A stretch of DNA of 43,995 nucleotides from an uncultured Mycoplasmatota bacterium (lineage in GTDB: Bacteria > Bacillota_I > Bacilli_A > RF39 > UBA660), in NCBI GenBank assembly GCA_947297555.1, contig CAMYTM010000001.1, positions 1 through 43,995 on the forward strand, written 5' to 3'. A program made the translations under genes and the position numbers. Positions within the stretch are counted from its first letter, which is position 1; the number at the start of each line of letters is the position of its first letter. A model generated the notes under the pieces. The model worked only from the letters and a program-made list of their open reading frames with translations, did no database searches and was not told the origin of the DNA. Below are positions 9,875-31,409 of this stretch, in pieces.

Positions 9875-9885
9875 GAGGTGAATGT

Positions 9886-12800: not shown

Positions 12801-13002
12801 AGAAGAGGAAAGTGAATTTAAAATAGTTGATTATAAGTTAGTGAATACAAAAGACGAAGTGTATATTAAACAATTAAAAGGATATAAGGAATATATTGAA
12901 AAAAAATTTCAAAAAAGTGCTAGAGTATTTTTGTATTCAATAGTAAAAGAAAGTCTTGAAGAAATAAAGTTACAAGACTTGGATGTTTTAATGGAAGTCT
13001 AG
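9886..13002 (+). CDS. addA: helicase-exonuclease AddAB, subunit AddA (UvrD/Rep-type helicase + nuclease)
   Basis: 1038 aa. Walker A 'GAGSGKT', 'LTFTKAAAEEM', 'IDEYQDTN', 'NFRS', 'TIHKSKGLEF', 'LFYVALTRAKE' and C-terminal nuclease 'VIDLL...IVDYK'. Confidence 0.9.
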   Translation: MPLWTKEQRDAIHFDHSNIIVSAGAGSGKTAVLSERVIRKLRDGVNINELLILTFTKAAAEEMKIRIRNKISKDDSLKSQLALLDASYITTFDAYALAIVKKYNYLLNVSKNISIIESSIISIKKEELLDSVFDEYYVSRDEKFLKFIDDFCVKDDGVVKVCILEMNNKLDMRYDKAEYLKNYIVNYYNDNFINKLIQEYENLILEKVSLLHEQVLKLEEFVSTEYAEKLNESLGELLIADSYQKVVSNINTIPRLPKNAEEEAKVVKEKISDCLKEIDTLCSYRDLEEIKDSLYKTKNYVEVIIEIILRLDAKVNDYKFQNDLFEFCDIAKMAIRVLEENEEICMQLRASLNEIMIDEYQDTNDLQEKFISFLAKDNVYMVGDIKQSIYRFRNANPNLFKEKYDQYSLHEGGIKIDLNKNFRSRKEVLQNINLIFNLVMSDFVGGASYSASHQMCYGNTSYDEIGSTAHSNDLEILNYVYDKTAGYSKEEIEIFTIATDIKKKMEEQYEIFDKDAQIKRPIRYEDIVILMDRSTHFYLYKKVFEYLNIPMAIYKDESITDSVTIAIVKNILYLLLNRYPNQEFKYAFISVLRSFLFREEDNVIFSYFVNQNYEDSFLLKIIESIDYFMLNPKEVMEEIIEKFAFYEKIVTVGDVDKHIAILDYLLTIADSLGKMGYTLEDFYHYLCVLQEKNYDITIHSLKQENGVKIMTIHKSKGLEFHLCYFSGLSSKFNLSDVNARFLYDKKYGIVTPFLDRGIRGTICKDLIKISQLKEEISERIRLFYVALTRAKEKMIFVASLKEESPFVLDRVIDYQKLEYRSLLDILNSIKGNLSSFIRRVDLDNIGLTHDYNYIKEYNFRELIEYKKCNLDVDMLVKEENVVEKERFSKVSTKLMSREEMENMRSGVYFHEIMENFDFTNPNYSGLDDFDVRKIQAFIGTGILDRALHLYKEYEFKYIVKDTVLHGVIDLLIEEESEFKIVDYKLVNTKDEVYIKQLKGYKEYIEKKFQKSARVFLYSIVKESLEEIKLQDLDVLMEV

Positions 13003-13114: not shown

Positions 13115-13158
13115 ATGTCTATAAGAGCGACTAAAAAAGTAGTAATAGATCCTGGTCA
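13115..13158 (+). CDS. split Amidase_3/LysM gene, segment 1 of 4 (MSIRATKKVVIDPG-H)
   Basis: SD 'agaggtg' then ATG at 13115. It encodes the start of an Amidase_3 domain ('IDPGH') and then runs into element sequence. It continues in frame at 24908. Confidence 0.8.
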
Positions 13159-13244
13159 CCCGAGTTATTTGTTCCCCAACAATAATATGTTTTGGTAAAC
13201 GATAAATCTATAAGTTAAGGTACTTTGATAGAGAAGTATCTTTT
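13155..13244 (+). repeat. direct repeat copy A (element-1 left end: att half-site + terminator-like hairpin)
   Basis: 90 bp with 85/90 identity to 15231-15320. Its 3' tail (13236-13259) also matches 17040-17063 at 23/24. Confidence 0.85.
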
Positions 13245-13397
13245 ATTATGGAAAAATTTATTTAGGATGTTGTTATGATGACTAGTGAAATCATTTACTC
13301 AGGTTATATAGAAAAATAAAAAAGACTTATGAGAAAATGGGATATGAAATAATTGATGTATAAATTTAAAATTTAAAATGAGACAAATATTTTTAAA

Positions 13398-15104
13398 ATG
13401 TATGTTACAATTGATTTAAGAGGTGAGATACTTTTGAATAAAACTTATGAAGAATTAAAAGAAATCGTGTTAGAACTTATTAAGAATGAAGAGAATGAAT
13501 GTGTAGAATTTAAAAGAGCAGAAAATGATTTTGATATAGATAAATTAGGAAAGTATTTCTCTGCTATTGGAAATGAAGCTACTTTAAAAAATAAACAATA
13601 TGGCTGGATAATTTTTGGAATTGATGATAAAACTCATGAGTTTATTAACACTAAATATCATTATGATGATAATTTTAATAATGTTAAAAAACAAATTTCA
13701 GATAATACTACTGATAATATAACTTTTATTGAGGTGTATTCTATTAAAATTTATGAAAATAGAGTTGTTATGTTTCAAGTCCCTGCTGCATCTGGAACTC
13801 CTATTAATTGGAAGGGCTTTCCTTATGGAAGAAATGGTGAATTATTAGTACCTTTGGCTTTAAATAAGATTGAACAAATTAAAGCAACGGCAAATTATGA
13901 TTGGTCTAGACAAATTATAGAAGAAGCCACTATTGATAATTTGGATGTAGAGGCTATTAAAATAGCTCGAACTCAATTTAAAAGAAAATATAAGGGCACA
14001 CCAATAGCAAATGAAATAGAAAGTTTATCAGATATAGATTTTCTTAATAAAGCAAAAGTAACTATTGATGGAAAAATTACCTATGCTGCTATGTTATTAT
14101 TAGGTAAAAATGATGATGACTATTTGATGAATGGTTATAATGCTCGTATGACTTGGAAATTATATGATGAAATTAATGTGATTGATTATGAGCATTTTGG
14201 CATTCCTTTTATTATTAATGTTGAAAAAGTAAAAAATAAAATTAGGAATTTAAGATATAGATATATGGTGAATGAAAATACGTTATTTCCTAATGAGGTA
14301 GATCAGTATGATAATTACATACTTCGTGAGTTAATAAATAATTGTATAGTACACCAAGATTACAGATTAAAAGGAATTATAAATGTAATGGAATTTAAAG
14401 ATAAGTTAATTATTACAAATGAAGGGAATTTTATCCCACAAAAAATTGAGAATGTTTTAAAAGATGGTTATTCATCTCCTTATTACCGAAATCAGTTTCT
14501 TGCCAGTGCAATGGTGAATTTAAATATGATTGATACAGTTGGGAGTGGAATAAGAAGAATCTATAATATTCAAAAAGAAAAATATTTTCCGCTACCAGAT
14601 TATGATTTGAGTGAGGATAATAGAGTAAAAGTTACATTATATGGAAAAATAATAGATGAAAATTATAGTAAAATATTATTTGAAAAAACGAATCTTGATA
14701 TAGATAAAGTCATATTATTAGATAGAGTTCAAAAGTCTTACTCTATAACTAAAGAACAAAGTGATTATTTAAAGAAAGATGATTTAATTGAAGGTAGGTA
14801 TCCCAATATTTATATTTCATCTGATATTGCAAAAATAACTAATAAGAAAGTAGATTATATTGAAAATAAAGGCTTAGATAATGCTTATTATATGGATTAT
14901 ATAATAGCTTACATAAAAAAATTTGGTAGTGCGAGTAGACAAGAAATTAATGATTTAATAAAACCAAAACTTCCTAGTAATTTATCTTCTGCACAATTAG
15001 ATAATAAAGTTCGCTATTTGTTAAGAAAAATGCGTGAAGATGGGAAAATATATAATGCTGGTAATGATACTAAGCCAGTTTGGAAAATAAAAAATGATAT
15101 TTAG
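13398..15104 (+). CDS. AlbA_2 (Schlafen-like) + HATPase_c_4 putative DNA-binding/ATP-binding regulator
   Basis: The N-terminal 'ECVEFKRAEN...GWIIFGIDD' fits the AlbA_2 pattern. 'LRELINNCIVHQDYRLKG...LIITNEG' fits the HATPase_c_4 pattern. The start is probably the in-frame TTG at 13434, which has SD 'aagaggtg' 8 nt upstream. Confidence 0.7.
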   Translation: MYVTIDLRGEILLNKTYEELKEIVLELIKNEENECVEFKRAENDFDIDKLGKYFSAIGNEATLKNKQYGWIIFGIDDKTHEFINTKYHYDDNFNNVKKQISDNTTDNITFIEVYSIKIYENRVVMFQVPAASGTPINWKGFPYGRNGELLVPLALNKIEQIKATANYDWSRQIIEEATIDNLDVEAIKIARTQFKRKYKGTPIANEIESLSDIDFLNKAKVTIDGKITYAAMLLLGKNDDDYLMNGYNARMTWKLYDEINVIDYEHFGIPFIINVEKVKNKIRNLRYRYMVNENTLFPNEVDQYDNYILRELINNCIVHQDYRLKGIINVMEFKDKLIITNEGNFIPQKIENVLKDGYSSPYYRNQFLASAMVNLNMIDTVGSGIRRIYNIQKEKYFPLPDYDLSEDNRVKVTLYGKIIDENYSKILFEKTNLDIDKVILLDRVQKSYSITKEQSDYLKKDDLIEGRYPNIYISSDIAKITNKKVDYIENKGLDNAYYMDYIIAYIKKFGSASRQEINDLIKPKLPSNLSSAQLDNKVRYLLRKMREDGKIYNAGNDTKPVWKIKNDI

Positions 15105-15230: not shown

Positions 15231-15320
15231 GTCACCCAAGTTATTTGTTCCCCAACAATAATATGTTGTGGTAAACGATAAATCTATAAGTTAAGGTACT
15301 TTGTTAGGAAAGTATCTTTT
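15231..15320 (+). repeat. direct repeat copy B (internal duplicate of element-1 left end)
   Basis: 85/90 identical to 13155-13244, including the CA core, the 13-nt spacer and the TTCCCCAA half-site. Confidence 0.85.
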
Positions 15321-15322
15321 TT
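15293..15322 (+). terminator. rho-independent terminator-like hairpin inside repeat copy B
   Basis: Stem 'aaggtactt'/'aagtatctt' (one G-U pair) followed by T6. The same hairpin occurs in copy A at 13217-13247. Confidence 0.45.
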
Positions 15323-15354
15323 GGTGATATAATATTAAATAGAGAGGTCTTTCT

Positions 15355-16314
15355 ATGAACAATGTAAAAAATGAACATTATATTCCTAGATTTTATTTGA
15401 AAAGATTTTCTACAGAAAGAATAAAAAGTGCTTATATGATTGATGTATATAATAAAAAGGCTCATAAGAAATTATTAAAACAAAATGTTAAAAATTTTGC
15501 TTGTATTAATAAATTTTATGATATTGATAATAATGAAATAAGAGAACAATTAGATATTCTTTTTAAATTTCCTAATATTAGTAATGATGATAAGATTAGA
15601 ATCTTAAATGACCGACAATTGATAGAACATTATTTTGCAAATGTAGAAAATCAAATAAAGCCTTTATTTGATTTAATAGAAGTCAATCATGATATAATAA
15701 ATGATATATTTTTTCGAGCTAATTTTTGTATTTTTATTAGAGATTTATCTATTAGGACTAATGGATTTCGTGAACATATGACAAAAATAGCTTCTACTTC
15801 ATTAGAACAGTTAAGAAAATTAAAAATTGAAAAAATAGGAAATTTTGATATAAGTAAATCTGCTGATGAACTAGCAAAGGTAAAACAATTACAAGCAATA
15901 GCATCTATTCCATTACTTGTAAAAGATGCAACGATTTTATTAACTGAATATAATTTTTATATTGGCATTAACAATACTAAAATTCCATTTATTATTTCAG
16001 ACCAACCTGCTTTGCCTGTCTTTGTAAAATGTAATGAGATTTGTATTCCTATTAGTTCTAAAACTGCAATTATAATGAGGGCTAAAGGGAAAAATGTTAA
16101 GTATTTAACCGATATTATTCCATTAGGTTACGAAATTGAGTTAACTGAAAAAAATGTTACATATTATAATATTGTTCAATTTAGTACCGCCAGCGAATAT
16201 TTATTTGGTAATATTAAAGAAATAGAAAGAATGATTGAATTGCAAAAATTTTCTGATACAATTCATAGTTTGGATGATAATAGTTTACATAATGAAGATT
16301 TTTATGTGAATTAA
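15355..16314 (+). CDS. DUF4238-like protein
   Basis: 319 aa. The N-terminal 'EHYIPRFYLKRFS' matches the conserved HY(V/I)PxFYLxxF start I associate with DUF4238. Confidence 0.55.
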   Translation: MNNVKNEHYIPRFYLKRFSTERIKSAYMIDVYNKKAHKKLLKQNVKNFACINKFYDIDNNEIREQLDILFKFPNISNDDKIRILNDRQLIEHYFANVENQIKPLFDLIEVNHDIINDIFFRANFCIFIRDLSIRTNGFREHMTKIASTSLEQLRKLKIEKIGNFDISKSADELAKVKQLQAIASIPLLVKDATILLTEYNFYIGINNTKIPFIISDQPALPVFVKCNEICIPISSKTAIIMRAKGKNVKYLTDIIPLGYEIELTEKNVTYYNIVQFSTASEYLFGNIKEIERMIELQKFSDTIHSLDDNSLHNEDFYVN

Positions 16315-16353: not shown

Positions 16354-17034
16354 ATGATAATGGAAAATAAAAAGATTGAAGAAAAACAAATTTTAGAGAA
16401 AATATATAACAATAAAAATGAAAATTTATATAAGGTAATTGATTCTATAAGTGAGAAACCTGATTTTATTTTAAAAGATTTAATTACTGATGAACTTTTT
16501 GGTGTTGAAATAACTAACATGTTTTATAATGAATTCAGTGCAAGATTACAGATTCCTGAAAATGTTAATATGATGTTGAAAAATGGTATACCAAGAAAAG
16601 CTGAAGAAGTATTAGCAAGACATAAAATGTATATTAATATTGAAAATAGTTGGCATTATATTGGGGATACAATAGGGCAATCGTTCAAAGATTATGATGA
16701 TTATATTAATGCCATTATTAATACAATAAAAGTAAAAACAGAAAAAGCAAAGAAATATAAAAAATTGGATTATATTGAATTATTTATATATGATAATGAA
16801 AATTATTTAAGATTTAAAAAAATTGAGGATTTGAAATATTTAGAGGAATCTGAAAAATTAAAAAACGCTATAAGTAATTCTCCATTCAAAAGAATATACT
16901 TTTTTACTATCATTAATAATTATTCAATGTTATTATTAAATGGTGATATTAGTTCAGGTCCTCTTGCAATATCAGATGAAAAGTTAGAAATTCATAAAAA
17001 TTATATGAAAAGTTTATTTAATCAAGATACTTAA
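16354..17034 (+). CDS. hypothetical protein (partner of the DUF4238 gene)
   Basis: 226-aa ORF, 40 bp downstream of the previous gene. SD 'gggtgg'; the start may be 16360. A terminator hairpin ('aagatac...gtatctttt') overlaps its stop codon. No recognisable domain. Confidence 0.5.
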   Translation: MIMENKKIEEKQILEKIYNNKNENLYKVIDSISEKPDFILKDLITDELFGVEITNMFYNEFSARLQIPENVNMMLKNGIPRKAEEVLARHKMYINIENSWHYIGDTIGQSFKDYDDYINAIINTIKVKTEKAKKYKKLDYIELFIYDNENYLRFKKIEDLKYLEESEKLKNAISNSPFKRIYFFTIINNYSMLLLNGDISSGPLAISDEKLEIHKNYMKSLFNQDT

Positions 17035-17086
17035 AGATGGTATCTTTTATTATGCAAAAATTTTAATAGAAAGCGAGGATTGATAA

Positions 17087-18367
17087 ATGGATTTAAATTA
17101 TGCAATTTTTAAAAGTAAACAAATAATGACTCTCAATGATTTAGCACAAATTGGTTCACACAATAAACGGGAGAAAAAAGCCTATAATTCTAACCCTGAT
17201 ATTAAGTTAGAATTAACAAAAGATAATATTGAATTAGTGCCTTTAGCAGATAAATATGTTAAAGGCTTTTATAATTTAACAAAAGAATATAAAAAAGAAC
17301 ATGATGAACGAATGGAAACAGAACGAGAAGATAGAAAAAGAAGTTTTAAACAAATGGTAGATAAATCTAAAAGTGTTGTTGCTGATGAACTCTTATTTAC
17401 AGCTACTCATGAATTTTTTAAGGATATGAATAAAGAAGAGATTAAAAAGTGAGCAGAAGTTTGTATGGATTTTGTTTATGAGGATTTGGGATATACGAAA
17501 GAGCAAGTACTACATAGTGTTATTCATTTAGACGAAAAAACACCGCATGTTCATTGTGTAGTAGTACCTTTAGTTAAAAAATATGATAAAAGAACAAATA
17601 CGGAAAGATATACGATTTCTAAAAAACAATACATTAGAGATAAAATTCATCTGTCGGAATTACAAGACTTATGCCATAAAAGATTAACTGATAATGGCTA
17701 TGATTTAGAACGAGGAATTAAACATAGTGATAATGAGAGTATTCCTATTAGAGAATATAAAAAGATAACACGAAAACTTAATCATACTTTAAGTGTTAGG
17801 AATGAAAGATTGGAAAATGCAATGACTAATTTAGAAGAACAAATGAAAAGTAATAAAGATGTGATGTTTGATAAAGAATATGTTAAAGTGAAGAAAGACA
17901 CTTTTGATACAATGAATCATGTTTTTAAAGAAACAAAAAAGGTTATGGAAATCCAACCGAAATTACAACAAGTTTTTGATGAAGTGGATAGTTATTCCCA
18001 AAATTATCTTTCTATTCAAAAGGAAAATAAAAGAATAAAGAAAGAAGTTGAAACTCTAAAAAATAAAAATAAAAAATTACAAGAAGAAAATAAAAATCTA
18101 ATTTCCTATATTAAGTTTATTTTAAAGGTTATTAAGCACTTTTTTAGAGAGTTACTACAAATTGGTAATGAGAAAACAAAAGAGGCTACTACAAATGAAA
18201 TTAAGGACTATTTTGATAATGAAGATTTTAACAAAGAAGATGTTTATGATATTGCAAAAGAAACAACTAAAGAAGATGAATTATTTGATTATGCAGATAT
18301 TTCTAGCTATTTGAAAACAAGTAAAAAGTCTTATGATAAGACAAATGATTTAGATTTAACTTTATAA
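17087..18367 (+). pseudogene. MobV-family (Mob_Pre) relaxase interrupted by one in-frame TGA
   Basis: Two track ORFs (17087-17452 and 17465-18367) share one frame and are separated only by a TGA at 17450-17452. Motifs 'HNKRE', 'NPDI' and 'HLDEKTPHVHCVVVPL' (HxDExTPHxH) are spread over both parts. The C-terminus is coiled coil. Confidence 0.7.
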
Positions 18368-18451
18368 TAAATAAAGTGATATTTTTAACAAATTTATAAG
18401 GTAAAATTTTATTTAATGCATGACAATGGTTTAACAATCTCAATGTTTGAT

Positions 18452-18479
18452 TTGACATTTATGATAATTCGTGTATAAT
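18452..18479 (+). promoter_or_regulatory. sigma-A promoter of the two-gene operon
   Basis: TTGACA (18452-18457), 16 nt, TATAAT (18474-18479), with TG immediately upstream of the -10. Confidence 0.6.
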
Positions 18480-18509
18480 AAAGTCAATTTTCGAAGGGGG
18501 AAAAGTTAT

Positions 18510-19568
18510 ATGAAATATTATTACAAGAAAAAACATGAAAAAAAGCAAGAATGGTTGGCTAGTTATTGGGTAAAACTTACTATGTTTATAATTGATAAAA
18601 TTTTAAAACAAGGAAAGGGAACTTTTAATGTAATTCATTATTTTGGAGATTTTCCAATGACAGTGAATTACGGTTTTGATACAAATTCTTTTTCTCTAGG
18701 ATTTCAAGCACAAGTTGAAGGCTGTGATAGAACTTATAGGCTTAATCCACTATATATTCTTTCTTATTTATTTGAATGTGATGATAAATGTAATTTGGAT
18801 GATTATTATGAAAGTGATGAAATAAAAGAACATGAACCTAGAATAATTCGTTTTATAAGGAAATATAATCCAAGTATTAAAGAAGTATCAAAATTTAGTT
18901 TTGCAAAACAATTACATACAGAATATAGCAATAATAAAGATGTATATTGCAAAGAAACAGGCTCGTTCATTAATACTCCTGAAAATAGAAATATTCTTCC
19001 AAGAGTTGTATATTTAAAATTTATGGCTAATTTAGAACACCAATTATATGATTTGATGTCATGGGATGCAGTTTATAAATATGCTTTAGAATTTTTAAGA
19101 GGAGATGTTGAAACTGGATTGATACCAGTAGAATTTGAACTTAATGGTGAATATAAGTATGGACATAGAAAGGCAACAATTGATTTTAATAATTTATGCC
19201 CAATTTTAACTGAAAGTGGAGAATATTTAATAGAGGAATATATGTGTTCCATTAAACCGAATGATTTTTTTTTAGATATGGTTTCAGAAAAATATCCTAG
19301 TGTCTTAAAAAATCATAGGATTACATTTGAAGAATTTCGAAAAAAAGTTATAGTTTACAATAGAGAACAAGGTAATAAACAGTTTCAAGATTGGTGGAAA
19401 GTTTTTAGGGGGGAAGGGTATCCAATCCCTGTGGGGTTGGGTGGTATTCCTCATCAAGTAATTTGCTATCCATTATTTCCACATATAGATTGTTATTTAG
19501 ATTATTGTGCAAAATTGAATATCCCATTTATAGATAGTGAAGAGAAAGAAAGGGGAAATTCGAGATGA
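18510..19568 (+). CDS. hypothetical protein, no recognisable domain (gene A of a candidate two-gene system)
   Basis: The ATG at 18510 has SD 'gaaggggg' 9 nt upstream (the track start at 18471 lacks an SD). 352 aa. Its stop overlaps the next start (ATGA at 19565-19568). Confidence 0.6.
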   Translation: MKYYYKKKHEKKQEWLASYWVKLTMFIIDKILKQGKGTFNVIHYFGDFPMTVNYGFDTNSFSLGFQAQVEGCDRTYRLNPLYILSYLFECDDKCNLDDYYESDEIKEHEPRIIRFIRKYNPSIKEVSKFSFAKQLHTEYSNNKDVYCKETGSFINTPENRNILPRVVYLKFMANLEHQLYDLMSWDAVYKYALEFLRGDVETGLIPVEFELNGEYKYGHRKATIDFNNLCPILTESGEYLIEEYMCSIKPNDFFLDMVSEKYPSVLKNHRITFEEFRKKVIVYNREQGNKQFQDWWKVFRGEGYPIPVGLGGIPHQVICYPLFPHIDCYLDYCAKLNIPFIDSEEKERGNSR

Positions 19569-21022
19569 ATTTTGATTTATATAAAGGATATCGTGGTTTA
19601 TTAGATAAGTCTTTAAATGGACAAAAAGTAACTTTAAATGAACTTAGGAAGTTTTTTCAAAAGGCTAATTTTGGTGGAAAGTTTTATCTTCAAGCCTTAG
19701 TAGTTAATCATTTAATGTTTCTAAACGGAGATAGGAATTTTAATGATTTTTCGTTGTTATATAGTTGTTTTGAAGAATCTATAAAATTTTGTTATGAAAA
19801 AGAAGATACTTTAGAAGAAATTAAAGGTTTAAAGGAGTTAAATTCTTCAAAAATAGGTAGTTTGTTTGCTGAGTTTTTATTTTCAGGATATCTTCCAATG
19901 CTATTTTATTTAGATACATACGGCATTATTTCTAAAATACCAACAAATGGTTTTATAGTAGATAATTATATGCGTCCAATAAATACAAGAGTGTTATTTG
20001 AAAATGCAACAAAAAATGATAAATCTTTGAAATTCAATGAGTTTATAAATATGATGTTTATGTATTTTTCTGAAAATCTTGATAATAGTATAATTAAAAT
20101 TAATTCTTCAGGAGAGTATCGTAATATTATACAAGTTTGTGACAAAAATTATAATTATCAAGCAACTATAAAGTCAGATGAAAAACCACCAGTTGGAACA
20201 TTTATAAAAGATAAGAAATACATTGTTAATCCTGCAGTAGGAAGAGCACAAGAAAAAAGAAGCATGGAAATTTCGCTTTTAATGCCTGAAACATCTTCTA
20301 TTTTGGTTGGGCCTGCTGGTGTAGGAAAAACTGCTATTGTTGAAGGATTGAATTATGATATTCAAAATGGTAAGATTACAAATCGCTTAAAAGATAGGCA
20401 AATATTAATGACCTCTAGTACTGAATTAGTTTCAGGCTGTTCTTTGGTAGGACAATTAGAAGATAGATTTTTAAAATTATGTCAATATGTAAAAAGACAT
20501 CCAGAAGTACTTGTGTATATTGATGAAATACACACTTTGATTGGTGGCGGTAGAGGAAGCGGCTCTACAAATGAACTTTCTAATATGATGAAACCATATC
20601 TTTCAAGTGGAGAACTACAATTAATTGGTGCTACTACTAAAGAAGAATATGAAAAATATTTTTTAGGGGAATCTGCTTTCAGAAGAAGATTTGAACCGAC
20701 TATGATAGATGAACCAGATGAAGAAACTTTAAAATGGATTTTATCAAATTGTGTTGAAAAACTTACAAAACAAACTGGAATATCTTTTGAAAGACCAGAA
20801 GAAATGGAAATATGTTTAGCAAAAATTATAGAATATTCTAATGCTGAATTTAGAAATAAAGAAGATTATCGTTATAATCCAGCACTTGCAATAAATATTT
20901 TGAAGAGAATATTTGCTACTGCTGAATATAATACTCATCAATTTATTGGAAAAGATGATATTGCTATTGGTATAAATGATTGCAGTTATACACTTGCACG
21001 AGTAGATAGCAAAAAGTTATAA
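19565..21022 (+). CDS. stand-alone Clp/Hsp100 D1-like AAA+ ATPase with unknown ~235-aa N-terminal domain (gene B)
   Basis: 'VGRAQEKRSMEISLL...ILVGPAGVGKTAIVEGL', 'VYIDEIHTLIGGG', 'LQLIGATTKEEYEKYF...AFRRRFEP' are colinear with the ClpA/ClpB/ClpC D1 module. There is no second AAA module and no Clp_N domain. Confidence 0.75.
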   Translation: MNFDLYKGYRGLLDKSLNGQKVTLNELRKFFQKANFGGKFYLQALVVNHLMFLNGDRNFNDFSLLYSCFEESIKFCYEKEDTLEEIKGLKELNSSKIGSLFAEFLFSGYLPMLFYLDTYGIISKIPTNGFIVDNYMRPINTRVLFENATKNDKSLKFNEFINMMFMYFSENLDNSIIKINSSGEYRNIIQVCDKNYNYQATIKSDEKPPVGTFIKDKKYIVNPAVGRAQEKRSMEISLLMPETSSILVGPAGVGKTAIVEGLNYDIQNGKITNRLKDRQILMTSSTELVSGCSLVGQLEDRFLKLCQYVKRHPEVLVYIDEIHTLIGGGRGSGSTNELSNMMKPYLSSGELQLIGATTKEEYEKYFLGESAFRRRFEPTMIDEPDEETLKWILSNCVEKLTKQTGISFERPEEMEICLAKIIEYSNAEFRNKEDYRYNPALAINILKRIFATAEYNTHQFIGKDDIAIGINDCSYTLARVDSKKL

Positions 21023-21126
21023 TATGTCTGAAAACTAACTTTAAGACAAGTTAGTAACACACTATGATATTGACAAGCCAATAACGAGATGTGCAAAGGG
21101 AGATACCCTTTTGAACCCCCTTTTAA

Positions 21127-21170
21127 GCAATAACTAAACAAGCTTTCGCAAGTAAAGTTATTGCCTTTTT
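21127..21170 (+). terminator. terminator-like hairpin downstream of the AAA+ gene
   Basis: Stem 'gcaataact' (21127-21135) / 'agttattgc' (21156-21164) followed by 'cttttt'. Confidence 0.4.
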
Positions 21171-21298
21171 ATTTGTATAAATACAAATAAAAAGAAAAAA
21201 GACTATCGCCAATAACACTAGCTAAAGCAACAAAACTTGCCCCGTCTTTTTTATGAAAATAACCTTAATGCTAAAGTCTAACGACTAAAGCAAAAAGG

Positions 21299-21907
21299 TT
21301 ATTTTTCTTCTTCTATAATGTTTCCTGTTAAGGTATTATATTTAACATTAGATTCAATTTTCATTTTTGGAAATACACCACTATCATATTTAGGATATTT
21401 ATCCTTATCTAATTTTTCTAAGTTAGGTCTAATTAAAGTCATAACTTCCTTTAGGTTATCTAAAATCTCATCCATAGAAATTTTTTCTCTTTTTTCAATT
21501 TTAGATAATTCTATTTTATCAATTATATCAGCTATAATGCCTTTACAAGCAAAAGCATTTTTTCTTCTTTCTTCTATATCTTCTAAAACATCAAAATAAA
21601 ATTTTTCATAAGATTTAATTTGTTCTTGATAATCAGCAGTACTTCTTTTTTCGGATAGATCCATACCCCAATTAATATCTATATCATTATATCCTGAGAG
21701 TTCCATTAATTTTACTAAACTTAAATTTAAGTTTTCAGCAATTCCTTTTAAATATAAAACATTTGGCTTTAATCTTTTTCCTGCTTCAATTCTTGATACT
21801 TCAGCACAATCCATATTAGATTTACGAGCAAGTTCTCTTTGCGAGATACCAAGTTTTTCTCTTGCTTCACTTATTGTTTTTCCAAGTTCAGTAGTATTTT
21901 TCTTCAT
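21299..21907 (-). CDS. XRE-family HTH regulator with unknown C-terminal domain
   Basis: An internal ATG at 21907 with SD 'aagaggtg' gives 202 aa beginning 'MKKNTTELGKTISEAREKLGISQRELARKSNMDCAEVSRIEAGKR' (HTH_XRE). The longer track ORF would run through the divergent promoter. Confidence 0.75.
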   Translation of the reverse strand: MKKNTTELGKTISEAREKLGISQRELARKSNMDCAEVSRIEAGKRLKPNVLYLKGIAENLNLSLVKLMELSGYNDIDINWGMDLSEKRSTADYQEQIKSYEKFYFDVLEDIEERRKNAFACKGIIADIIDKIELSKIEKREKISMDEILDNLKEVMTLIRPNLEKLDKDKYPKYDSGVFPKMKIESNVKYNTLTGNIIEEEK

Positions 21908-21989
21908 TAATAAATACACCTCTTTTTCTTTTGTTAAAGAAAGTATAACATATTGTGCTGTAAAAATCAACAATTTAGTAATTATTATG

Positions 21990-22018
21990 TTGACAAACTC
22001 AATATACGATGTTATACT
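21990..22018 (+). promoter_or_regulatory. sigma-A promoter driving the rightward module of element 1
   Basis: TTGACA (21990-21995), 17 nt, TATACT (22013-22018). A leader hairpin 'ttttgatg-taaaact-catcaaaa' follows at 22028-22050. Confidence 0.55.
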
Positions 22019-22060
22019 AGCCTCAGTTTTTGATGTAAAACTCATCAAAAGAAAGGAGGA

Positions 22061-22324
22061 ATGCTTATAAGGAAGTTTAAGATACAAGAGAGCGTTTGGA
22101 AAGATAAAAGAATTCCAAAGGAAGCCAAGTATATTTACTCTTATATTTATTCAAAAGGATTTGTGAGAATCATAACTGATATAAATATAGGAGAAATACA
22201 ACAAACTATTAAAATTAAAAACAAAGGCTTACAAAATAATCTTGAGATATTAGAGCAATACAAATATCTAATCTACCAAGAATATGCTAATGGGATGTAC
22301 ACAATAAATCTACTAGGGTGTTAA
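22061..22324 (+). CDS. small hypothetical protein (possible winged-helix)
   Basis: 87-aa ORF divergent from the XRE gene. GGAGG lies only 1 nt from the ATG, so the start is uncertain. Confidence 0.45.
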   Translation: MLIRKFKIQESVWKDKRIPKEAKYIYSYIYSKGFVRIITDINIGEIQQTIKIKNKGLQNNLEILEQYKYLIYQEYANGMYTINLLGC

Positions 22325-22530
22325 ATAACTCCTAGTAGATAAGGTACAGTAAGATTAAAGGCTTATGTTAGTACTTATTCTATAAAGAATATAGAATGAA
22401 CTTTGAAATAATCCGAAGGAAAGGATTTAAAATAATGTTCCAGGGGTTTTTATACCCAAAATTACGAATTGCTAGAGAATATTGGTATGGCTTTAAAGGC
22501 ATTTTATCGCAGTTCCTAGAATAGTATTAA

Positions 22531-22962
22531 GTGACCAAACTTGTTCGCAGGAAGGATAAATTAGTGTATGGAATCATTAATTCATTATCAAATAAGAAAG
22601 AATATTGCTATGCTAGTAATCATTATTTTTCTAAAGTGTTAGGTGTGTGTACAAAAACAATTTCTAATTCTATTCAAAATTTAGCGAGTAGGAATTATAT
22701 TTATATTAAATATGTGGATAACCAAAGACAAATTTATATAAATGAAGAGATTGTTAGAGAAGAAAATGCTAAGGTAGTAGAAAAGAAGTTCTATGATAAC
22801 ATAGAAAGAAATTGCCAATATAAAAGAAAAGAATTTATAAAAGATAATAAAAATAAGAATGATGTTCCTTATTGGTTAGAACATTCGGAAGTTTGTAAAA
22901 GTGAAGAAATGAGTTTAAACGATAAGGGAGAATTAGAAAGTATTATGAAAAAATATAAGTAA
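22531..22962 (+). CDS. helix-turn-helix protein, paralogue of 35808-36338
   Basis: 'EYCYASNHYFSKVLGVCTKTISNSIQNLASRNYIYIKY' aligns with 'GYCWATNDFFSDRFNVSKQTISKSISSLSNYGYIVLKY' in element 2. GTG start. It lacks about 20 N-terminal residues relative to the paralogue. Confidence 0.6.
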   Translation: MTKLVRRKDKLVYGIINSLSNKKEYCYASNHYFSKVLGVCTKTISNSIQNLASRNYIYIKYVDNQRQIYINEEIVREENAKVVEKKFYDNIERNCQYKRKEFIKDNKNKNDVPYWLEHSEVCKSEEMSLNDKGELESIMKKYK

Positions 22963-24849: not shown

Positions 24850-24907
24850 AATATAACCTATAATTTTAGCAAAAGAAGTAATTTTTGGGGAATTCAGTTT
24901 CAAGCCA

Positions 24908-25139
24908 TGGTGGTACTGACCCTGGGACTATTGCAAATGGAATAACAGAAAAAGAATATACATTAAAGATAAGTGAATATATTCATAATCGTTTGGATGA
25001 TTTAGGAATCGAAAATAGTATGACAAGAACTACAGATGAAACTTTATCTCCTGATGTTAGACCAGGTAGAGCACAGAGTTTTTATGGAAAGGGTAATGAT
25101 GTGATTCTTGTGTCTAATCATATAAATGCAGGAGGAGGT
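24908..25139 (+). CDS. split Amidase_3/LysM gene, segment 2 of 4
   Basis: 'GGTDPGTIANGITEKEYTLKISEYIHNRLDDLGIENSMTRTTDE...VILVSNHINAGGG' is the central Amidase_3 domain. The track ORF 24885-25169 is this segment plus element-derived head and tail. Confidence 0.85.
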
Positions 25140-25196
25140 AATAATCATTGTGTAACAAAGTATGTATAACAATTAAAGCCGAAAATATAATAAGAA

Positions 25197-25544
25197 ATGA
25201 GGATTAGTTATAATATGAGTTACCCAAAAGAAAATGAAATAATGAATGGAGATATATCTGATGAAGAATTTAATGAGAAATATTTGCCATTTTATGATAA
25301 TTTCAATGATTATATGGTTGGGTTTGTAATACCAGATGCAGTAGCATTTTATATTGTAAATAGCTATTTAAGAGGATGCTTAGTTGATAGTAAATTATAT
25401 AATCATATTAATTCTGCAGTAGATATTTTTAATTATAGATGTGATATAGATGTTATAATTCCATCTATAGAAAAGATATTAAACATAAAATATAATCTTA
25501 AAATTACTGGAAGAAATCCATTAAAACTAGAAAAATATTATTAA
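25197..25544 (+). CDS. hypothetical small protein
   Basis: 115-aa ORF. The ATG at 25215 has a better SD ('gagga'). No recognisable domain. Confidence 0.45.
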   Translation: MRISYNMSYPKENEIMNGDISDEEFNEKYLPFYDNFNDYMVGFVIPDAVAFYIVNSYLRGCLVDSKLYNHINSAVDIFNYRCDIDVIIPSIEKILNIKYNLKITGRNPLKLEKYY

Positions 25545-25611
25545 AAATTTAGCACTGTCAACATTGATGGTGCTTTTTTGTATGGTATAATAATTTAAGA
25601 GAGGTGGTAGT

Positions 25612-28600
25612 ATGAAACCAGAAGAATATTATAAGGTAATAAGTGATGAGCTGGCTAAAATTAAAGTGTTAATTGACACAGAAAACAGTATAAATTTGCT
25701 CGATAAAAACATTTTTTTAGAGGATATACTAGCTAATATACTAAATATCATATATGGTTTATCTCTGGTTAATACGAATTTTAATATTAGTAACTATCCA
25801 TCTATTGACTTAAAAGATGAAATTAATAAAACTGCTGTTCAAGTCACTACAAATGTTACTAGGATTAAAGTTCAAAATACGTTGGATACTTTTTTTAAAA
25901 AAGGATATGATAAAACTTTTGATAGGTTGTTTATTGTTGTGTTTGATAATCATTCTTACAGAGGAGAGTTTATTTTATCAAGTAAATTTAATTTTAACAA
26001 GGACGATAACATAATTACTTACGAAAAACTATTAAAAATTATTAAATCTTTAGCTGACGATAAATTAAAAAGAATATATGACTATATTGATATAGCATTA
26101 AAGGAAAACATTTATAATTTATACTGGATGAAAAAAAATACAATTAAATCATTAAATAATTTGGACAAAAGATACAATAGAAAGCTAAATGTTTTTAATG
26201 AAGAAACAAATAAAATTAAGATGTTTTTTTCCCAAGAAGATTGCAAAAAAGAAATAATTAACATGATAGAAGCAATAATTATCCTTATTGAAAATAATGA
26301 TATTAAAACGAATTTTAAAATTAATGAAATAGTTAATGATTTTACATTAATTACAATAAATGAAAAATTAGAAGCATTATCTAGACTAGAGAAATCAGTA
26401 TGTAAAAACTTTGAAGAGAAAGGAAATGATTATTATGATTATAATAAAATACATAATTTTGAAACAGAATATTATTTGTTACTTGAAAAATTAAACAATT
26501 TAATAGCATTATATTTTTCAAAAGTTATTATATATAGTGGAGTAGCTGGTATTGGTAAAAGCCATACATTAGCATCCTTTGTTAACGAAGACTATATCTC
26601 TAAAAATTTTCCTGCATTATTAGTATTGGGACAAGATTTTAGTGATGGTAGCAATATAGAAAACCAATTTTGTGAAATAACATCTGGGAAAAATAATTTT
26701 GATGAATTGTTATTTTATTTAAATGAGTTAGGAAGAGTAAGAAACATTATAGTACCCATAATTATTGATGGTTTAAACGAAAGTAATGATAATAGTATAT
26801 GGAAAAAGGGATTAAATAATTTTATTAATGAAGTAGTAAAATATTCAAATTTAAAATTAGTATTATCTGTTAGGGAAACATATTTTGAATTCTGTATTCC
26901 AGAAGAAGTAAAGAATAGAAATGGAATTTTGGTATATAATCATGAAGGTTTTAATGGTAATAGTATAAAAGCTATAGAGGAATTTTTTGAATTTTATGGC
27001 ATTGATATTCCTATATTTCAAATTATACATAATGAATTTAAAAATCCATTGTTTTTAACAACATATTGTAATATTGTCAGCAAGTATAATATACAGATAA
27101 ATGAAAATGAATATAAAAATTTTATACAAATATTTCAAATGTACTTATATAAAATAAATGAAATATTTGTTGAAAAGTACAATTTATTAAATAAACCTAA
27201 TATTATTAAAGAAGTTTTGAATAACTATATACAAAAATGGGTAGAAAATAATAAATCTATAACTGAGAAAGAGTTTTTAACTCTTCTTAGTGAAATTAGT
27301 GAATTATATGATATAAGTAAAAGAGAAATACTTAACTTTGTTATTGAAAATGGATTGTTTTATAAGGAGAGACGATTTAATGAAGAAATTATTGTATTCA
27401 CATATGAAAGATATGAAAAAATCTGTTTAGCAATGTATTTATTAGAATCTATAAATTCAATTGATGAATTAAAACAATCAATAAATGATGGATTATTAAA
27501 AGAATATGTTGATTCATCAGATAAATTTGATAATGGAATATTAGAGGAATTGATAAATATTATTCAGGAAGATTTTAAAGTTGATTTTGTTAGTATTATT
27601 TCTTTTGACAAAATTAAATTTGACTATTTTATTAAAAAAGATTATATAAAAAGCCTTTTATGGTTCAAGGGACAATATGACATAAATATCATTATAAATA
27701 ATATAAAAGAATTATATAAAGATGAAGATTATGCTAATGAAATTATTGATGTATTCATAAAAATGTCATATTTAGAAACTAATCCATTAAATATAAAAAT
27801 ATTAAATGAATATATGTTAAAGTTATCAATGCCACAACTAGATTATAATTGGTCTATAGTTATAGATTCTTATTATTCTGATTTTAAAAAAGAATCAATT
27901 GATAATATTATTAATTATTGCTTAAATTATGGTAGTGAATATTTGAATGATAATACTATATATTTATTATCAGTATTATTTAGTTGGCTTTTAAGTTCAT
28001 CAAATAGATATTTAAGGGATATATCAACTAAATCCTTAACTAAATTATTATTAAATAATCATAAAGTATCTGTAGAATTACTTAAGAATTTTAAAAATGT
28101 TAATGATATGTATGTGTTGGAAAGAATAGTAGCAGCAATATATGGAAGTATAATAAGAAGTTCTAATAGTAATAATATTGAAGAATTATCTCATGAACTT
28201 TATAATGTAATTTATAAAAATGAAAAACCTATTGATAATGTAGTAATAAAAGTATACTCAAGAAAAATTTTTGCTTATATGAAAGAAAAATATCAGATAA
28301 GTCTTTATGACAATATAGAAAATGAAGCCAAATCAGAATGGTATCAACATCTACCTACTAATGATGAAATTGATAAATATGATGTTGATTATAAAGATGA
28401 GAATGTTGATAAAAGAAAATATTCTAATTCTGCAATAATTCATTCTATGGTAACTGAATATGGTAGAGGAACTAGTGCTTATGGAGATTTTGGAAGATAT
28501 GTATTAGGGTATTTTTTAAATCCATTTGCGTATGTGGTAGAAGATGTACAATTATTAGCAAATAAGGCAACAGAAAGAGTTTTTGACTATGGATATGATT

Positions 28601-29655: not shown

Positions 29656-29685
29656 AAAATAATGATTAAAATTTACTGAGTTATT

Positions 29686-29721
29686 AAAAACAAATAGGCA
29701 AAAATTTTCCTATTTGTTTTT
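29686..29721 (+). terminator. rho-independent terminator after the STAND gene
   Basis: 13-bp perfect stem 'aaaaacaaatagg'/'cctatttgttttt' with a 10-nt loop. Confidence 0.7.
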
Positions 29722-29941
29722 AAATTTAATATAAAATAAAAAGGACAAAATTGTTCTTTTATTAGAGGTAACTTAGTAGTCTTGTACAATATATCAAGCA
29801 TGGTGTCTACACACCCTAAAAGCTTGTTAGGGAGTATCCCTAAAACCCATTACAAATTAGTCTCTGAAAGTTAATAAAATTTCTAAATATAATTGTGAAA
29901 AGGACATTTACTAAAATATAAAATATTAGTATAATATTGTT

Positions 29942-30544
29942 ATGAAAGTAAATGGTGGCTTTATGAGCAATGAAGATAAAATTAAAGATTATTTAGATAA
30001 AAATTATGGTTATATAACAACTTCTGAAATATTGAGTATGAATATTAGCAAACCTTTAATTAAAAAATATGTTGAAAATGGATTATTAAGAAAAGTTTCA
30101 CATGGCTTATACATAGATAGCAATTTATTAGAAGATGATGAATACATTTTTCAAAGAAGATATCCCGAGGCAATATTTTCATATAATACAGCATTATATT
30201 TTCTTAATTTGTCTAATAGAGCTCCACATAAAATTGAAATAACTTTAAGTAATAGAAAGAGAATTAGTTGTGATTATGAAGTACATTATATTTCAGATAA
30301 ATATTATGATATTGGCATTATTGAAATAGAAAGCATGTTTGGTAACCCAATTAGAATTTATAATGCTGAAAGGTCTATTTGTGATATGTTACGAAATGGT
30401 GATTTTGAATTAGAATTACAAAATACTATTCTTAGAAATTATTTTAGAAGTAAAGATAGAGATCTTGATAAGCTTTTAGAGTATGCAAAAATATTTAAAA
30501 TTTACGATAAAGTCAATACTTTAGTTGAGTATGAAATGGGTTAG
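29942..30544 (+). CDS. AbiEi-like (type IV TA antitoxin family) wHTH protein
   Basis: 'GYITTSEILSMNISKPLIKKYVENGLLRKVSHGLY' matches the AbiEi_4 N-terminal pattern. The start may be the ATG at 29963 (SD 'ggtgg'). Confidence 0.65.
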   Translation: MKVNGGFMSNEDKIKDYLDKNYGYITTSEILSMNISKPLIKKYVENGLLRKVSHGLYIDSNLLEDDEYIFQRRYPEAIFSYNTALYFLNLSNRAPHKIEITLSNRKRISCDYEVHYISDKYYDIGIIEIESMFGNPIRIYNAERSICDMLRNGDFELELQNTILRNYFRSKDRDLDKLLEYAKIFKIYDKVNTLVEYEMG

Positions 30545-30556
30545 GAGGTTTCTTAA

Positions 30557-31393: not shown

Positions 31394-31409
31394 AAGTGAG
31401 GTAATAGTT

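What the first reader, a model, noticed from the sequence alone, without database searches (positions are those of the whole stretch)
18452..21170. Candidate undescribed two-gene system: a 353-aa orphan protein translationally coupled to a stand-alone Clp-D1-like AAA+ ATPase
This is a self-contained unit with a canonical TTGACA-16-TATAAT promoter, two genes with overlapping stop/start (ATGA), and a downstream terminator-like hairpin. Gene B is colinear with the D1 ATPase module of ClpA/B/C (Walker A 'GPAGVGKTAIVEGL', Walker B 'VYIDEIHTL', sensor/arginine finger 'AFRRRFE'). It lacks Clp_N, the middle domain and D2, and instead has an unrecognisable ~235-aa N-terminus. Gene A has no domain I can name. 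I know of no described anti-phage or TA system with this composition. It sits in a mobile element among defence-type genes, which is the usual context of novel defence systems.
Basis: inference. Interest (0 to 1): 0.8.

Follow-up and report, generated by a model that had tools for sequence, protein, structure and literature searches.

The report
Orphan-plus-Clp-like ATPase defence-slot cassette
A very rare two-gene cassette, pairing a protein with no known relatives and a stripped-down Clp-type ATPase, sits in the slot of a gut-bacterial mobile element where sister copies carry McrBC restriction, so it is a reasonable but untested candidate for a new anti-phage system.

Summary
There is a perfect TTGACA-16-TATAAT promoter (18452-18479). 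Gene A runs 18510-19568 and is 352 aa, not 353. Gene B runs 19565-21022 (485 aa), with an ATGA stop/start overlap. Residues ~215-460 of B are a Clp/Hsp100 D1 module with intact ATPase motifs, but the pore-loop KYR is replaced by SLV. B has no Clp_N, M-domain or D2.

A and B's 215-aa N-domain have no detectable relatives beyond three lineages each, searched among billions of proteins. AlphaFold models were too poor to classify either.

The strongest new evidence comes from sister copies of the same serine-recombinase mobilisable element. They share the flanks, but window 18340-21030 (promoter+A+B) is replaced by McrBC, by a P-loop NTPase pair, or by an HTH+359-aa pair. Neighbours include AbiD, Avs2, type III R-M and DUF4238.

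The pair recurs once at 41%/58% identity with the same overlap. B also occurs alone, beside remnants of A and a retron. A also occurs alone.

By composition the closest named system is Dodola (DUF6414 + ClpB-like), but neither protein matches its models.

Verdict: a real, selected, swappable cargo cassette and a probable new defence candidate. Its function is untested and it is very rare.

The parts
18340..21030 (+). Swappable cargo cassette (promoter + gene A + gene B). Homology with sister elements stops at about 18318-18339 and resumes at about 21029-21051.
   Evidence: blastn of L015, L018, L021 and L024 against the window. Junction alignments.
18452..18479 (+). Sigma-70-type promoter TTGACA-16-TATAAT (12/12). 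It is conserved as ATTTGAC-N-TATAaTAA in L001, L002 and L014.
18493..18501 (+). Shine-Dalgarno GAAGGGGGA for gene A
18510..19568 (+). Gene A: 352 aa, soluble and acidic (pI 6.2), no TM segment. It is an orphan with only three lineages known. Invariant residues include H43, D57, E70, H108, E158-N159-R160, H315, H325-I326-D327 and C333.
19550..19556 (+). Shine-Dalgarno AAGGGGA for gene B, inside the 3' end of gene A. The ATGA stop/start overlap lies at 19565-19568.
   Evidence: L002 has the same 4-bp overlap.
19565..20209 (+). Gene B N-terminal domain (aa 1-215). It is predicted helical and found only in B, P0003 and P0004. No similarity was detected to Clp_N or to the N-domains of other D1-only ATPases.
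20210..21022 (+). Gene B Clp/Hsp100 D1-type AAA+ module plus a simple lid (aa 216-485). Motifs: Walker A GPAGVGKT (K255), Walker B D320/E321, GATT sensor-1, R373-R375 arginine finger. The pore-1 loop is G-C-S-L-V-G instead of K-Y-R-G. There is no M-domain and no D2.
21034..21055 (+). Backbone hairpin at the right junction of the cargo slot (ACTAACTT / AAGTTAGT). Sister elements have ACTAAAAT / ATTTTAGT, which amounts to two compensatory pair changes.
21127..21175 (+). Terminator-like hairpin plus T-run. It is backbone sequence shared by elements carrying other cargo, and presumably terminates whatever occupies the slot.

Best explanation
A-B is a self-contained accessory cargo cassette, most likely an anti-phage or anti-MGE conflict system. 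It is carried in the variable defence slot of a ~9.5-kb serine-recombinase mobilisable element of an uncultured gut Bacilli bacterium.

Shown:
- B is an ATPase-competent, single-ring Clp/Hsp100 D1-type AAA+ protein. It derives from a lineage-specific family of D1-only ClpC-like ATPases.
- B has no D2, so it has no ClpP-docking loop. It has no M-domain, so it has no DnaK or MecA handle.
- B has a non-aromatic L-V-G pore loop and a private 215-aa N-domain.
- A is a 352-aa orphan, made from the same transcript and translationally coupled to B.

Inferred:
- A and B form a complex, as with ClpC and its adaptor, McrB and McrC, or IetA and IetS.
- B's N-domain and/or A recognises an infection cue.
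- ATP-driven remodelling by the B ring then either activates A as effector or disables a phage protein that A recruits.

Each gene survives alone behind the same promoter. Neither is therefore likely to be a constitutive toxin held in check by the other.
For: Slot evidence:
- Sister elements have a recombinase at least 90% identical and flanks 91-95% identical. They replace exactly window 18340-21030 with McrB+McrC (L018/L019), a weak NB-ARC/P-loop 605-aa protein plus a 200-aa protein (L015-17), or HTH+359 aa (L021-24). The breakpoints coincide.

Neighbourhood:
- AbiD 2e-59, Avs2 1.7e-174, type III REase and a GajB-like UvrD helicase. DUF4238 is also present.
- In L001 the B homologue sits beside a retron RT (3.5e-123) and a broken PtuA-like ATPase.

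Pair conservation:
- L002 carries A (41%) and B (58%) with the same 4-bp overlap.
- The promoter and RBS are conserved in all four lineages.

Selection:
- dN/dS is 0.25 for B and 0.42 for A. B's N-domain evolves faster (0.36) than the ATPase (0.17). This fits a specificity surface.

ATPase motifs are intact.

Precedent: Dodola is an unknown protein plus a ClpB-like ATPase. It is a validated defence system in Firmicutes (PMC11514479, PMC12322248).
Against: - There is no functional data of any kind.
- No homology links either protein to a validated defence protein.
- Only two independent A+B loci exist. B occurs without A in L001, where remnants of A remain. A occurs without B in L014, in a housekeeping neighbourhood.
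- B's closest ATPase relatives are housekeeping genes.
- Extreme rarity: none were found in GTDB representative genomes, IMG/VR, JGI metagenomes, PLSDB or INPHARED.
- Structure prediction failed (pLDDT 46 and 44). No effector chemistry can be assigned to A.
- Two of the four slot occupants are themselves of unknown function.
Confidence: 0.45

Rival explanations
1. A-B is a toxin-antitoxin or addiction module that stabilises the mobile element. One partner would be a toxin and the other would neutralise it, for example the ATPase holding or unfolding the toxin, in the manner of toxin-antitoxin-chaperone systems.
For: - It is a two-gene, translationally coupled operon with a strong constitutive-looking promoter on an integrative element.
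- Chaperone-dependent TA defence systems exist (CmdTAC, PMC11618068).
- The slot also holds an HTH plus unknown pair in L021.
Against: - B persists intact with the same promoter after A decayed (L001; dN/dS 0.26).
- A persists alone with the same promoter (L014).
- Neither solo state is expected if one partner is a toxin that needs the other.
- The gene sizes (352 and 485 aa) are atypical for type II TA.
- There was no hit to any toxin or antitoxin family.
Confidence: 0.12
2. A-B is non-immune accessory proteostasis cargo: a specialised single-ring ClpC-like remodeller with its own adaptor or substrate. It would benefit the host or element under stress, as ClpK/ClpG do on heat-resistance islands, or it would back up the host's reduced ClpC.
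For: - B's ATPase core is 47-49% identical to D1-only ClpC-like proteins. These sit in housekeeping operons: ftsY-ylxM-AAA-murC, and next to gltX/cysS.
- The gene order of a ~350-aa protein followed by a Clp ATPase recalls mcsB-clpC (established knowledge).
- The A homologue P0123 lies among housekeeping genes.
Against: - B lacks D2, the M-domain and the ClpP loop needed for disaggregation or degradation.
- The pore-loop tyrosine is lost.
- A has no similarity to McsB, MecA or ClpS. Pfam gave none, and the PDB profile search gave none at E<=10.
- The cassette is interchangeable with McrBC and very rare, which is not the distribution of a useful stress trait.
- The L014 copy still carries the cassette promoter, suggesting an inserted cassette rather than a core gene.
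Confidence: 0.15
3. A-B serves the element itself or inter-MGE competition: anti-defence, exclusion of rival elements, or help with excision or transfer.
For: - It lies directly downstream of the Mob_Pre relaxase and upstream of the XRE/HTH_36/recombinase maintenance module.
- AAA+ remodellers are used by transposons (TniB/MuB/IstB-type). Faint TniB hits are recorded for relatives.
Against: - Sister elements lack it and carry unrelated cargo, so it is dispensable for the element's life cycle.
- B is Clp D1-type, not of the TniB/IstB clade: ClpA scores 7e-45 against IstB 0.054.
- The same pair occurs next to a tRNA gene, without the element, in L002.
Confidence: 0.1
4. A-B is a decaying or non-functional remnant with no current role.
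For: - The Mob gene of the element is split.
- L001 shows decay of A.
- The pair is extremely rare.
Against: - Both ORFs are intact.
- There is purifying selection across 41-58% divergence (dN/dS 0.25-0.42).
- All ATPase motifs are invariant.
- The promoter, the RBS and the overlap are conserved.
Confidence: 0.03

Closest known systems
Dodola (DolA DUF6414 + DolB ClpB-like), an anti-phage system of Firmicutes
   Same: Both are two-gene operons pairing a protein of unknown function with a short, single-module, Clp-related P-loop ATPase. Both occur in low-GC Gram-positives and act as strain-specific accessory loci. The mechanism of Dodola is unknown too (PMC11514479; bioRxiv 10.1101/2024.10.26.620412; PMC12322248).
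   Different: A has no DUF6414 hit. B, P0003 and P0004 give no hit to the PADLOC DolB model PDLC03838. That model is present in the library, and even genuine Clp proteins touch it only at the P-loop. B is an unmistakable D1 homologue (7e-45), whereas DolB is only remotely Clp-like. No sequence of DolA or DolB was available for a direct comparison.
Class I Clp/Hsp100 unfoldases (ClpC/ClpA/ClpB) with their adaptors (MecA, McsB, ClpS)
   Same: The D1 nucleotide-binding module is 38% identical to B. subtilis ClpC D1, with Walker A/B, sensor-1 and arginine fingers conserved. The upstream ~350-aa gene recalls the mcsB-clpC gene order.
   Different: B has no Clp_N, no M-domain, no D2, no ClpP-binding loop and no pore-loop tyrosine (SLV in place of KYR). 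A is unrelated to any known adaptor. The context is a mobile cargo slot, not the ctsR operon.
D1-only ClpC-like AAA+ ATPases of gut Bacilli/Mollicutes-like MAGs (297-530 aa; apparently undescribed, annotated only as 'AAA family ATPase')
   Same: This is the closest ATPase core (47-49% identity). It has the same simple lid with no M-domain and a variable or lost pore loop. The CSLVG motif is shared with P0025 and P0026.
   Different: Those genes sit in conserved housekeeping neighbourhoods and are abundant. Their N-domains are unrelated to B's. Many end in a K-[VI]-I-x-F-P tail that B lacks. They have no gene-A partner.
McrBC (type IV restriction), the occupant of the same slot in sister elements
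   Same: It has an AAA+ motor with a specificity N-domain, a partner encoded by an overlapping gene, and the same position in the same element.
   Different: McrB is an AAA_5 GTPase with a McrB lid, and McrC is PF10117. Neither family matches A or B. The gene order is reversed, with the motor second here.
IetAS (Gao_Iet) and CBASS TRIP13/Cap6
   Same: Both have a classical-clade AAA+ ATPase acting with a partner protein in defence. B gives weak PADLOC hits to IetA (0.005) and TRIP13 (0.0012).
   Different: The hits are generic to the AAA+ core and are stronger for housekeeping relatives. There is no subtilase IetS, no HORMA and no CD-NTase nearby.

Membership tests
Class I Clp/Hsp100 (ClpA/B/C) | D1 AAA+ module with Walker A, Walker B, sensor-1 and arginine finger | tested here: met
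   NCBIfam ClpA 7.4e-45 over model positions 178-414. PDB ClpC 3.4e-37 with the motifs aligned. The motifs are invariant in B, P0003 and P0004.
Class I Clp/Hsp100 (ClpA/B/C) | Second AAA+ module D2 (AAA_2 + ClpB_D2-small) with the ClpP-docking loop in ClpA/C | tested here: not met
   The protein ends 25 residues after the D1 lid. Pfam AAA_2 scores only 0.046 and lies on the same P-loop. There is no D2-small.
Class I Clp/Hsp100 (ClpA/B/C) | Clp_N N-terminal domain | tested here: not met
   No PF02861 hit at E<=1. hhalign of the N-domain profile against N-domains of relatives gave probability <1%.
Class I Clp/Hsp100 (ClpA/B/C) | Aromatic pore-1 loop in D1 (K-Y-R-G) | tested here: not met
   G-C-S-L-V-G aligns to G-T-K-Y-R-G of ClpC. 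It is invariant in the three B-clade proteins.
Class I Clp/Hsp100 (ClpA/B/C) | Coiled-coil M-domain inserted in the D1 small domain (ClpB/ClpC) | tested here: not met
   The lid region is only about 90 aa (394-485) and is continuous with the lids of D1-only relatives.
D1-only ClpC-like ATPases of gut Bacilli (family defined here) | A single D1 module plus a simple lid, closer to each other than to canonical ClpC | tested here: met
   Core identity is 47-49% against 38% to B. subtilis ClpC D1.
D1-only ClpC-like ATPases of gut Bacilli (family defined here) | Conserved chromosomal housekeeping neighbourhood | tested here: not met
   Relatives lie next to ftsY/ylxM/murC, gltX/cysS and yebC/tyrS. 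B lies in a swappable cargo slot or next to a tRNA or a retron.
Dodola | DolA = DUF6414 protein | tested here: not met
   A, P0002 and P0123 have no Pfam family above threshold, and DUF6414 is absent at E<=1. There is no PADLOC DolA hit.
Dodola | DolB matches the PADLOC/DefenseFinder DolB model | tested here: not met
   B gave no DolB hit at E<=1. P0003 and P0004 gave none at E<=0.1. Model PDLC03838 is present in the library.
Dodola | Two-gene operon: an unknown protein plus a Clp-related ATPase | tested here: met
   The composition of Dodola is taken from PMC11514479 and bioRxiv 10.1101/2024.10.26.620412.
Dodola | Protects against phage when cloned | not testable with these tools
   An experiment is required.
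McrBC | McrB AAA_5 GTPase with McrB lid, plus McrC (PF10117) | tested here: not met
   B scores AAA_5 at only 0.043. A has no McrBC hit. Genuine McrBC occupies the same slot in L018.
Type II toxin-antitoxin | The partners are mutually dependent, so the toxin is not maintained without its antitoxin | tested here: not met
   B occurs solo with the promoter retained (L001). A occurs solo with the promoter retained (L014).
Defence system (generic) | Located in a variable hotspot that holds known defence systems in related genomes | tested here: met
   McrBC occupies the identical slot. AbiD, Avs2, type III R-M, DUF4238, Hachiman and type I R-M lie on the same or the adjacent elements.
Defence system (generic) | Statistical enrichment of homologues next to defence genes across many genomes | tested here: inconclusive
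   Only five independent loci exist. Three of them are in a defence or MGE context (window/L003, L001, and L002 next to a tRNA). One is in a housekeeping context (L014).

The most novel reading that the evidence does not exclude
A-B is a mechanistically new immune module. A single-ring Clp/Hsp100 D1 unfoldase has lost ClpP coupling and its aromatic pore loop. It acts as an ATP-driven sensor or switch through a private N-domain, and it controls an effector (A) of a fold and chemistry not yet seen in any defence system. On this reading it is unrelated by descent to Dodola and evolved from a lineage-specific housekeeping mini-ClpC captured by a mobile element.
Probability: 0.25. Interest if true: 0.7.

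Novelty: new variant of a known kind. Interest (0 to 1): 0.5.

Why it matters
If the cassette protects against phage, it would add a second, independent case of Clp-type ATPases recruited to immunity, after Dodola. It would also offer a clean example of a housekeeping chaperone lineage captured by a mobile element. And it would introduce a new effector or adaptor fold (A).

The slot analysis is useful in its own right. This family of small serine-recombinase mobilisable elements in uncultured gut Bacilli works as an exchangeable defence-cargo carrier. Four different cargos sit between identical breakpoints, which could be mined for further systems.

The value is limited by the cassette's extreme rarity, the uncultured host and the absence of any structural or biochemical handle on A.

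Tried and rejected
1. Family searches of A against Pfam, NCBIfam, PADLOC and PHROGs gave nothing. The best results were sub-threshold noise.
2. A profile search of A against PDB sequences gave only V-ATPase subunit G at E about 0.5, which I rejected.
3. AlphaFold2 of A (3-sequence alignment) reached pLDDT 46, and of B reached pLDDT 44. Foldseek against the PDB then gave nothing below E=0.1. I treat these as uninformative. Only B's lid resembled AAA+ lids.
4. The search for more homologues:
   - The 1.84-billion-representative HMM search gave only P0001, P0002 and P0123.
   - GTDB genomes, IMG/VR and JGI metagenomes gave nothing with either A or B-N-domain profiles.
   - PLSDB and INPHARED tblastn gave nothing for A.
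5. The profile search of B's N-domain in the 5.8-billion-protein database returned nothing. It also failed to recover P0003 and P0004, so it is not counted as a valid negative.
6. I looked for a relation of B's N-domain or of A to the N-domains of other D1-only ATPases, to each other, or to any ORF in the fetched loci. hhalign and hmmsearch found none.
7. I considered A as McsB/MecA-like because of the mcsB-clpC gene order. There was no sequence support.
8. I considered A as a PD-(D/E)XK nuclease, on the alpha-beta-beta-beta-alpha pattern of the low-confidence model and the invariant D57/E70. There is no (D/E)xK lysine and the model is unreliable, so I do not claim this.
9. Dodola membership was tested and not met.
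10. The weak PADLOC hit to PDC-S68 (8.6e-4) covers only the P-loop region. I rejected it as generic.
11. Rfam found no family in the window, including the structured region downstream of B.
Full report
**1. Observation**

- TTGACA (18452), 16 nt and TATAAT (to 18479) form the only 12/12 promoter match in 17000-22600.
- A GAAGGGGGA ribosome-binding site precedes the ATG at 18510.
- Gene A ends at 19568 and encodes 352 aa. The GTG ORF start listed at 18471 lies inside the -10 box.
- Gene B (19565-21022, 485 aa) starts within A's stop codon (ATGA) and has its own AAGGGGA site.
- Both reading frames are real genes. Between the window and its relatives, dN/dS is 0.25-0.26 for B and 0.39-0.42 for A.

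**2. Gene B**

Residues ~215-460 align to the D1 module of ClpA/B/C.
- NCBIfam ClpA gives 7.4e-45 over model positions 178-414. ClpB gives 2e-40.
- B. subtilis ClpC structures give 3.4e-37.
- Walker A (GPAGVGKT), Walker B (VYIDEIH), GATT and the AFRRRFE arginine-finger segment align and are invariant in the three known B-clade proteins.
- Pfam sees only PF00004. There is no Clp_N, no AAA_2, no D2-small and no M-domain.

The tyrosine is replaced by leucine.

The first 215 residues match nothing. They are shared only with P0003 (84% identical overall) and P0004 (58%). hhalign gave probabilities below 1% against the N-domains of related ATPases.

**3. Where B comes from**

The database search found a large set of single-module D1-only ATPases of 297-530 aa from Bacilli and Mollicutes-like MAGs.
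- B's ATPase core is 47-49% identical to them, against 38% to ClpC D1.
- They share the simple lid.
- Their pore loops vary: MYVG, RYRG, SLVG, or deleted.
- They sit in housekeeping neighbourhoods: ftsY-ylxM-AAA-murC, MurT/GatD-AAA-gltX-cysS, and yebC-AAA-tyrS.

B therefore looks like an offshoot of a lineage-specific 'mini-ClpC' that acquired a new N-domain and moved onto mobile DNA.

**4. Gene A**

A gave no hit in Pfam, NCBIfam, PADLOC, PHROGs or PDB sequences.
- Among 1.84 billion cluster representatives, only three clusters exist: A itself, P0002 (41%) and P0123 (40%).
- It is soluble and acidic, with no TM segment.
- It has a set of invariant His, Asp, Glu and Cys residues.
- AlphaFold2 with three sequences gave pLDDT 46, and 44 for B. 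Foldseek found nothing meaningful.
- The fold and chemistry of A remain unknown.

**5. Is the pair conserved?**

| Locus | Content | Context |
|---|---|---|
| L003, L004 | Near-identical copies of the window element | Same element |
| L002 | Divergent A (370 aa) and B (481 aa), same 4-bp overlap, plus a third 146-aa gene | Downstream of tRNA-Pro |
| L001 | 84%-identical B with the same promoter and RBS; A reduced to about 230 bp of remnants | Next to tRNA-Arg, a retron RT (RT_Ec107-like, 3.5e-123) and a broken PtuA-like ATPase |
| L014 | A homologue P0123 alone | Between housekeeping genes |

The L014 copy still has the same ATTTGAC-N-TATAaTAA promoter and AAAGGGG site as all the other cassettes. 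That points to an inserted cassette rather than a core gene.

So the pair is probably ancestral, but each gene can persist alone. This argues against a strict toxin-antitoxin relationship.

Nothing related was found in GTDB representative genomes, IMG/VR, JGI metagenomes, PLSDB or INPHARED.

**6. Context: the decisive part**

The window is a contig of an uncultured 'Bacilli bacterium'. A-B lies in a ~9.5-kb element with this layout:
- cargo slot 1 (DUF4238 plus a 226-aa protein)
- Mob_Pre (split)
- cargo slot 2 (A-B)
- XRE (minus strand)
- HTH_36
- large serine recombinase

The element is followed by an amidase gene. That gene is itself split by a second recombinase element carrying Avs2, AbiEi/Fic and a type III R-M system.

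Recombinases at least 90% identical occur on many contigs. In those sister elements the flanks match the window at 91-95%, up to about 18318-18339 and again from about 21029-21051. The interval between holds other cargo:

| Sister loci | Cargo in the slot |
|---|---|
| L018/L019 | McrB (AAA_5 + McrB_lid) + McrC + two small ORFs |
| L015-17 | A 605-aa weak NB-ARC/P-loop protein + a 200-aa protein |
| L021-24 | An HTH + a 359-aa protein |

Thus window 18340-21030, which is exactly promoter+A+B, is one allele of an exchangeable cargo slot. In at least one allele that slot holds a bona fide restriction system.

The hairpins and the terminator-like stem downstream (21034-21055 and 21127-21175) belong to the backbone.

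**7. Mechanism (committed but inferred)**

- B most likely forms an ATP-hydrolysing ring.
- It has no D2, no ClpP loop and no M-domain. It therefore cannot act as a protease partner or as a DnaK-coupled disaggregase.
- Its private N-domain and the co-translated A supply specificity and output.
- I favour a defence module. An infection cue would be sensed through A and/or B's N-domain. ATP-driven remodelling would then either activate A or neutralise a recruited phage protein.
- A (dN/dS 0.42) and B's N-domain (0.36) evolve faster than the ATPase (0.17). This fits an interface under conflict.
- The evidence for a defence role is positional and by analogy. I put it at about 0.45. The rivals, with their confidence, are an addiction module (0.12), proteostasis cargo (0.15), an element or anti-defence function (0.10) and junk (0.03).

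**8. Comparison with known systems**

One exists.
- Dodola pairs DolA (DUF6414) with a ClpB-like DolB. It protects B. subtilis and S. thermophilus (PMC11514479; bioRxiv 10.1101/2024.10.26.620412; PMC12322248).
- Membership fails. A has no DUF6414 hit. B, P0003 and P0004 have no hit to the PADLOC DolB model.
- That model is in the library and is only marginally touched by real Clp proteins.
- A-B is therefore a compositional analogue, not a member.
- It is also not McrBC, IetAS or a canonical Clp (see the membership table).

**9. Verdict**

This is a real, selected, self-contained and swappable two-gene cassette in a demonstrated defence-cargo slot. It is unrecognised by current defence catalogues and is built from an orphan protein and a derived D1-only Clp ATPase.

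It is a credible candidate for a new defence system of the 'AAA+ motor plus partner' kind. It is very rare, untested and structurally opaque. I rate interest at 0.5 and class it as a new variant of a known kind.

Noticed in passing
window 17087-17452 and 17465-18367: The Mob_Pre relaxase is split into two ORFs of 121 and 300 aa. It is also split in L015 (244+176 aa) and L018 (209+219 aa), and is intact (428 aa) only in L021. Most copies of the element may no longer be mobilisable.
   Followed up: partly
window 13155-13257 and 15231-15333: A 103-nt direct repeat (89% identical) brackets the Schlafen AlbA_2/HATPase_c_4 gene (13398-15104). L018, from the same species, has one repeat copy and no Schlafen gene. 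This suggests a further gain/loss module upstream of the element.
   Followed up: partly
window 24885-25169, 25197-39243, 39244-39624: An Amidase_3/LysM gene is split by a second serine-recombinase element. That element carries Avs2 (SMEK N-domain, PADLOC 1.7e-174), AbiEi + Fic, an N6/N4 methylase and a type III REase. The amidase is intact in L003, L018 and L024. In L021 the corresponding element carries Hachiman, and in L015 a type I R-M system.
   Followed up: partly
window 21034-21055 (and L015, L018, L021 junctions): The hairpin exactly at the right junction of the cargo slot reads ACTAACTT/AAGTTAGT here and ACTAAAAT/ATTTTAGT in sister elements. Two base pairs have changed compensatorily. 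It could be a cargo terminator or a recombination signal for cassette exchange.
   Followed up: partly
window 21015-21300: The 286-nt intergenic region between B and the convergent XRE gene folds far better than shuffled controls (z = -7.4). It contains several hairpins and matches no Rfam family. It probably holds bidirectional terminators, but that was not tested.
   Followed up: partly
window 15355-16314 and 16354-17034: A DUF4238 protein (Pfam 7.8e-26) belongs to the family of the named single-gene defence system Rst_DUF4238 but has no PADLOC hit. It is followed by a 226-aa orphan. Together they occupy the element's other cargo slot, which holds a 252-aa or a 290-aa orphan in L015 and L003.
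   Followed up: partly
loci L005, L006, L010, L025 (proteins P0014-P0122): A large, apparently undescribed family of single-ring D1-only ClpC-like ATPases (297-530 aa) is a conserved housekeeping gene in gut Bacilli/Mollicutes-like MAGs (for example ftsY-ylxM-AAA-murC). The 297-aa form has the pore-1 loop deleted. Many ~500-aa forms end in a K-[VI]-I-x-F-P tail.
   Followed up: partly
L001 5434-7649: A retron RT (PADLOC RT_Ec107-like, 3.5e-123) sits with a fragmented PtuA-like ATPase (202-aa and 79-aa pieces) and a tRNA-Arg(CCT), directly upstream of the solo B homologue. This looks like a decaying defence island.
   Followed up: partly
window 3911-5934: An AbiD/Abi_2 gene (PADLOC 2.2e-59) is followed 3 bp later by a trypsin-like protease with a PDZ domain. 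This may be a two-gene Abi variant.
   Followed up: no
window 7574-13002: A PD-(D/E)XK protein (766 aa) and a UvrD/PD-(D/E)XK helicase-nuclease (1038 aa, PADLOC GajB-like 2.5e-36) form an AddAB-like pair directly upstream of the elements. Whether it acts in repair or defence is unclear.
   Followed up: no
window 42688-43258: Tandem ~159-nt repeats (4-5 copies, 68-83% identical) lie inside ORF 42725-43276, downstream of a third serine recombinase (41112-42677). They match the LysM-repeat part of the amidase in L003/L018.
   Followed up: no
L002 9456-9896: In the divergent A-B locus, a third 146-aa orphan gene follows B after 9 bp. The window cassette has no counterpart. It may be an optional third component.
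   Followed up: no
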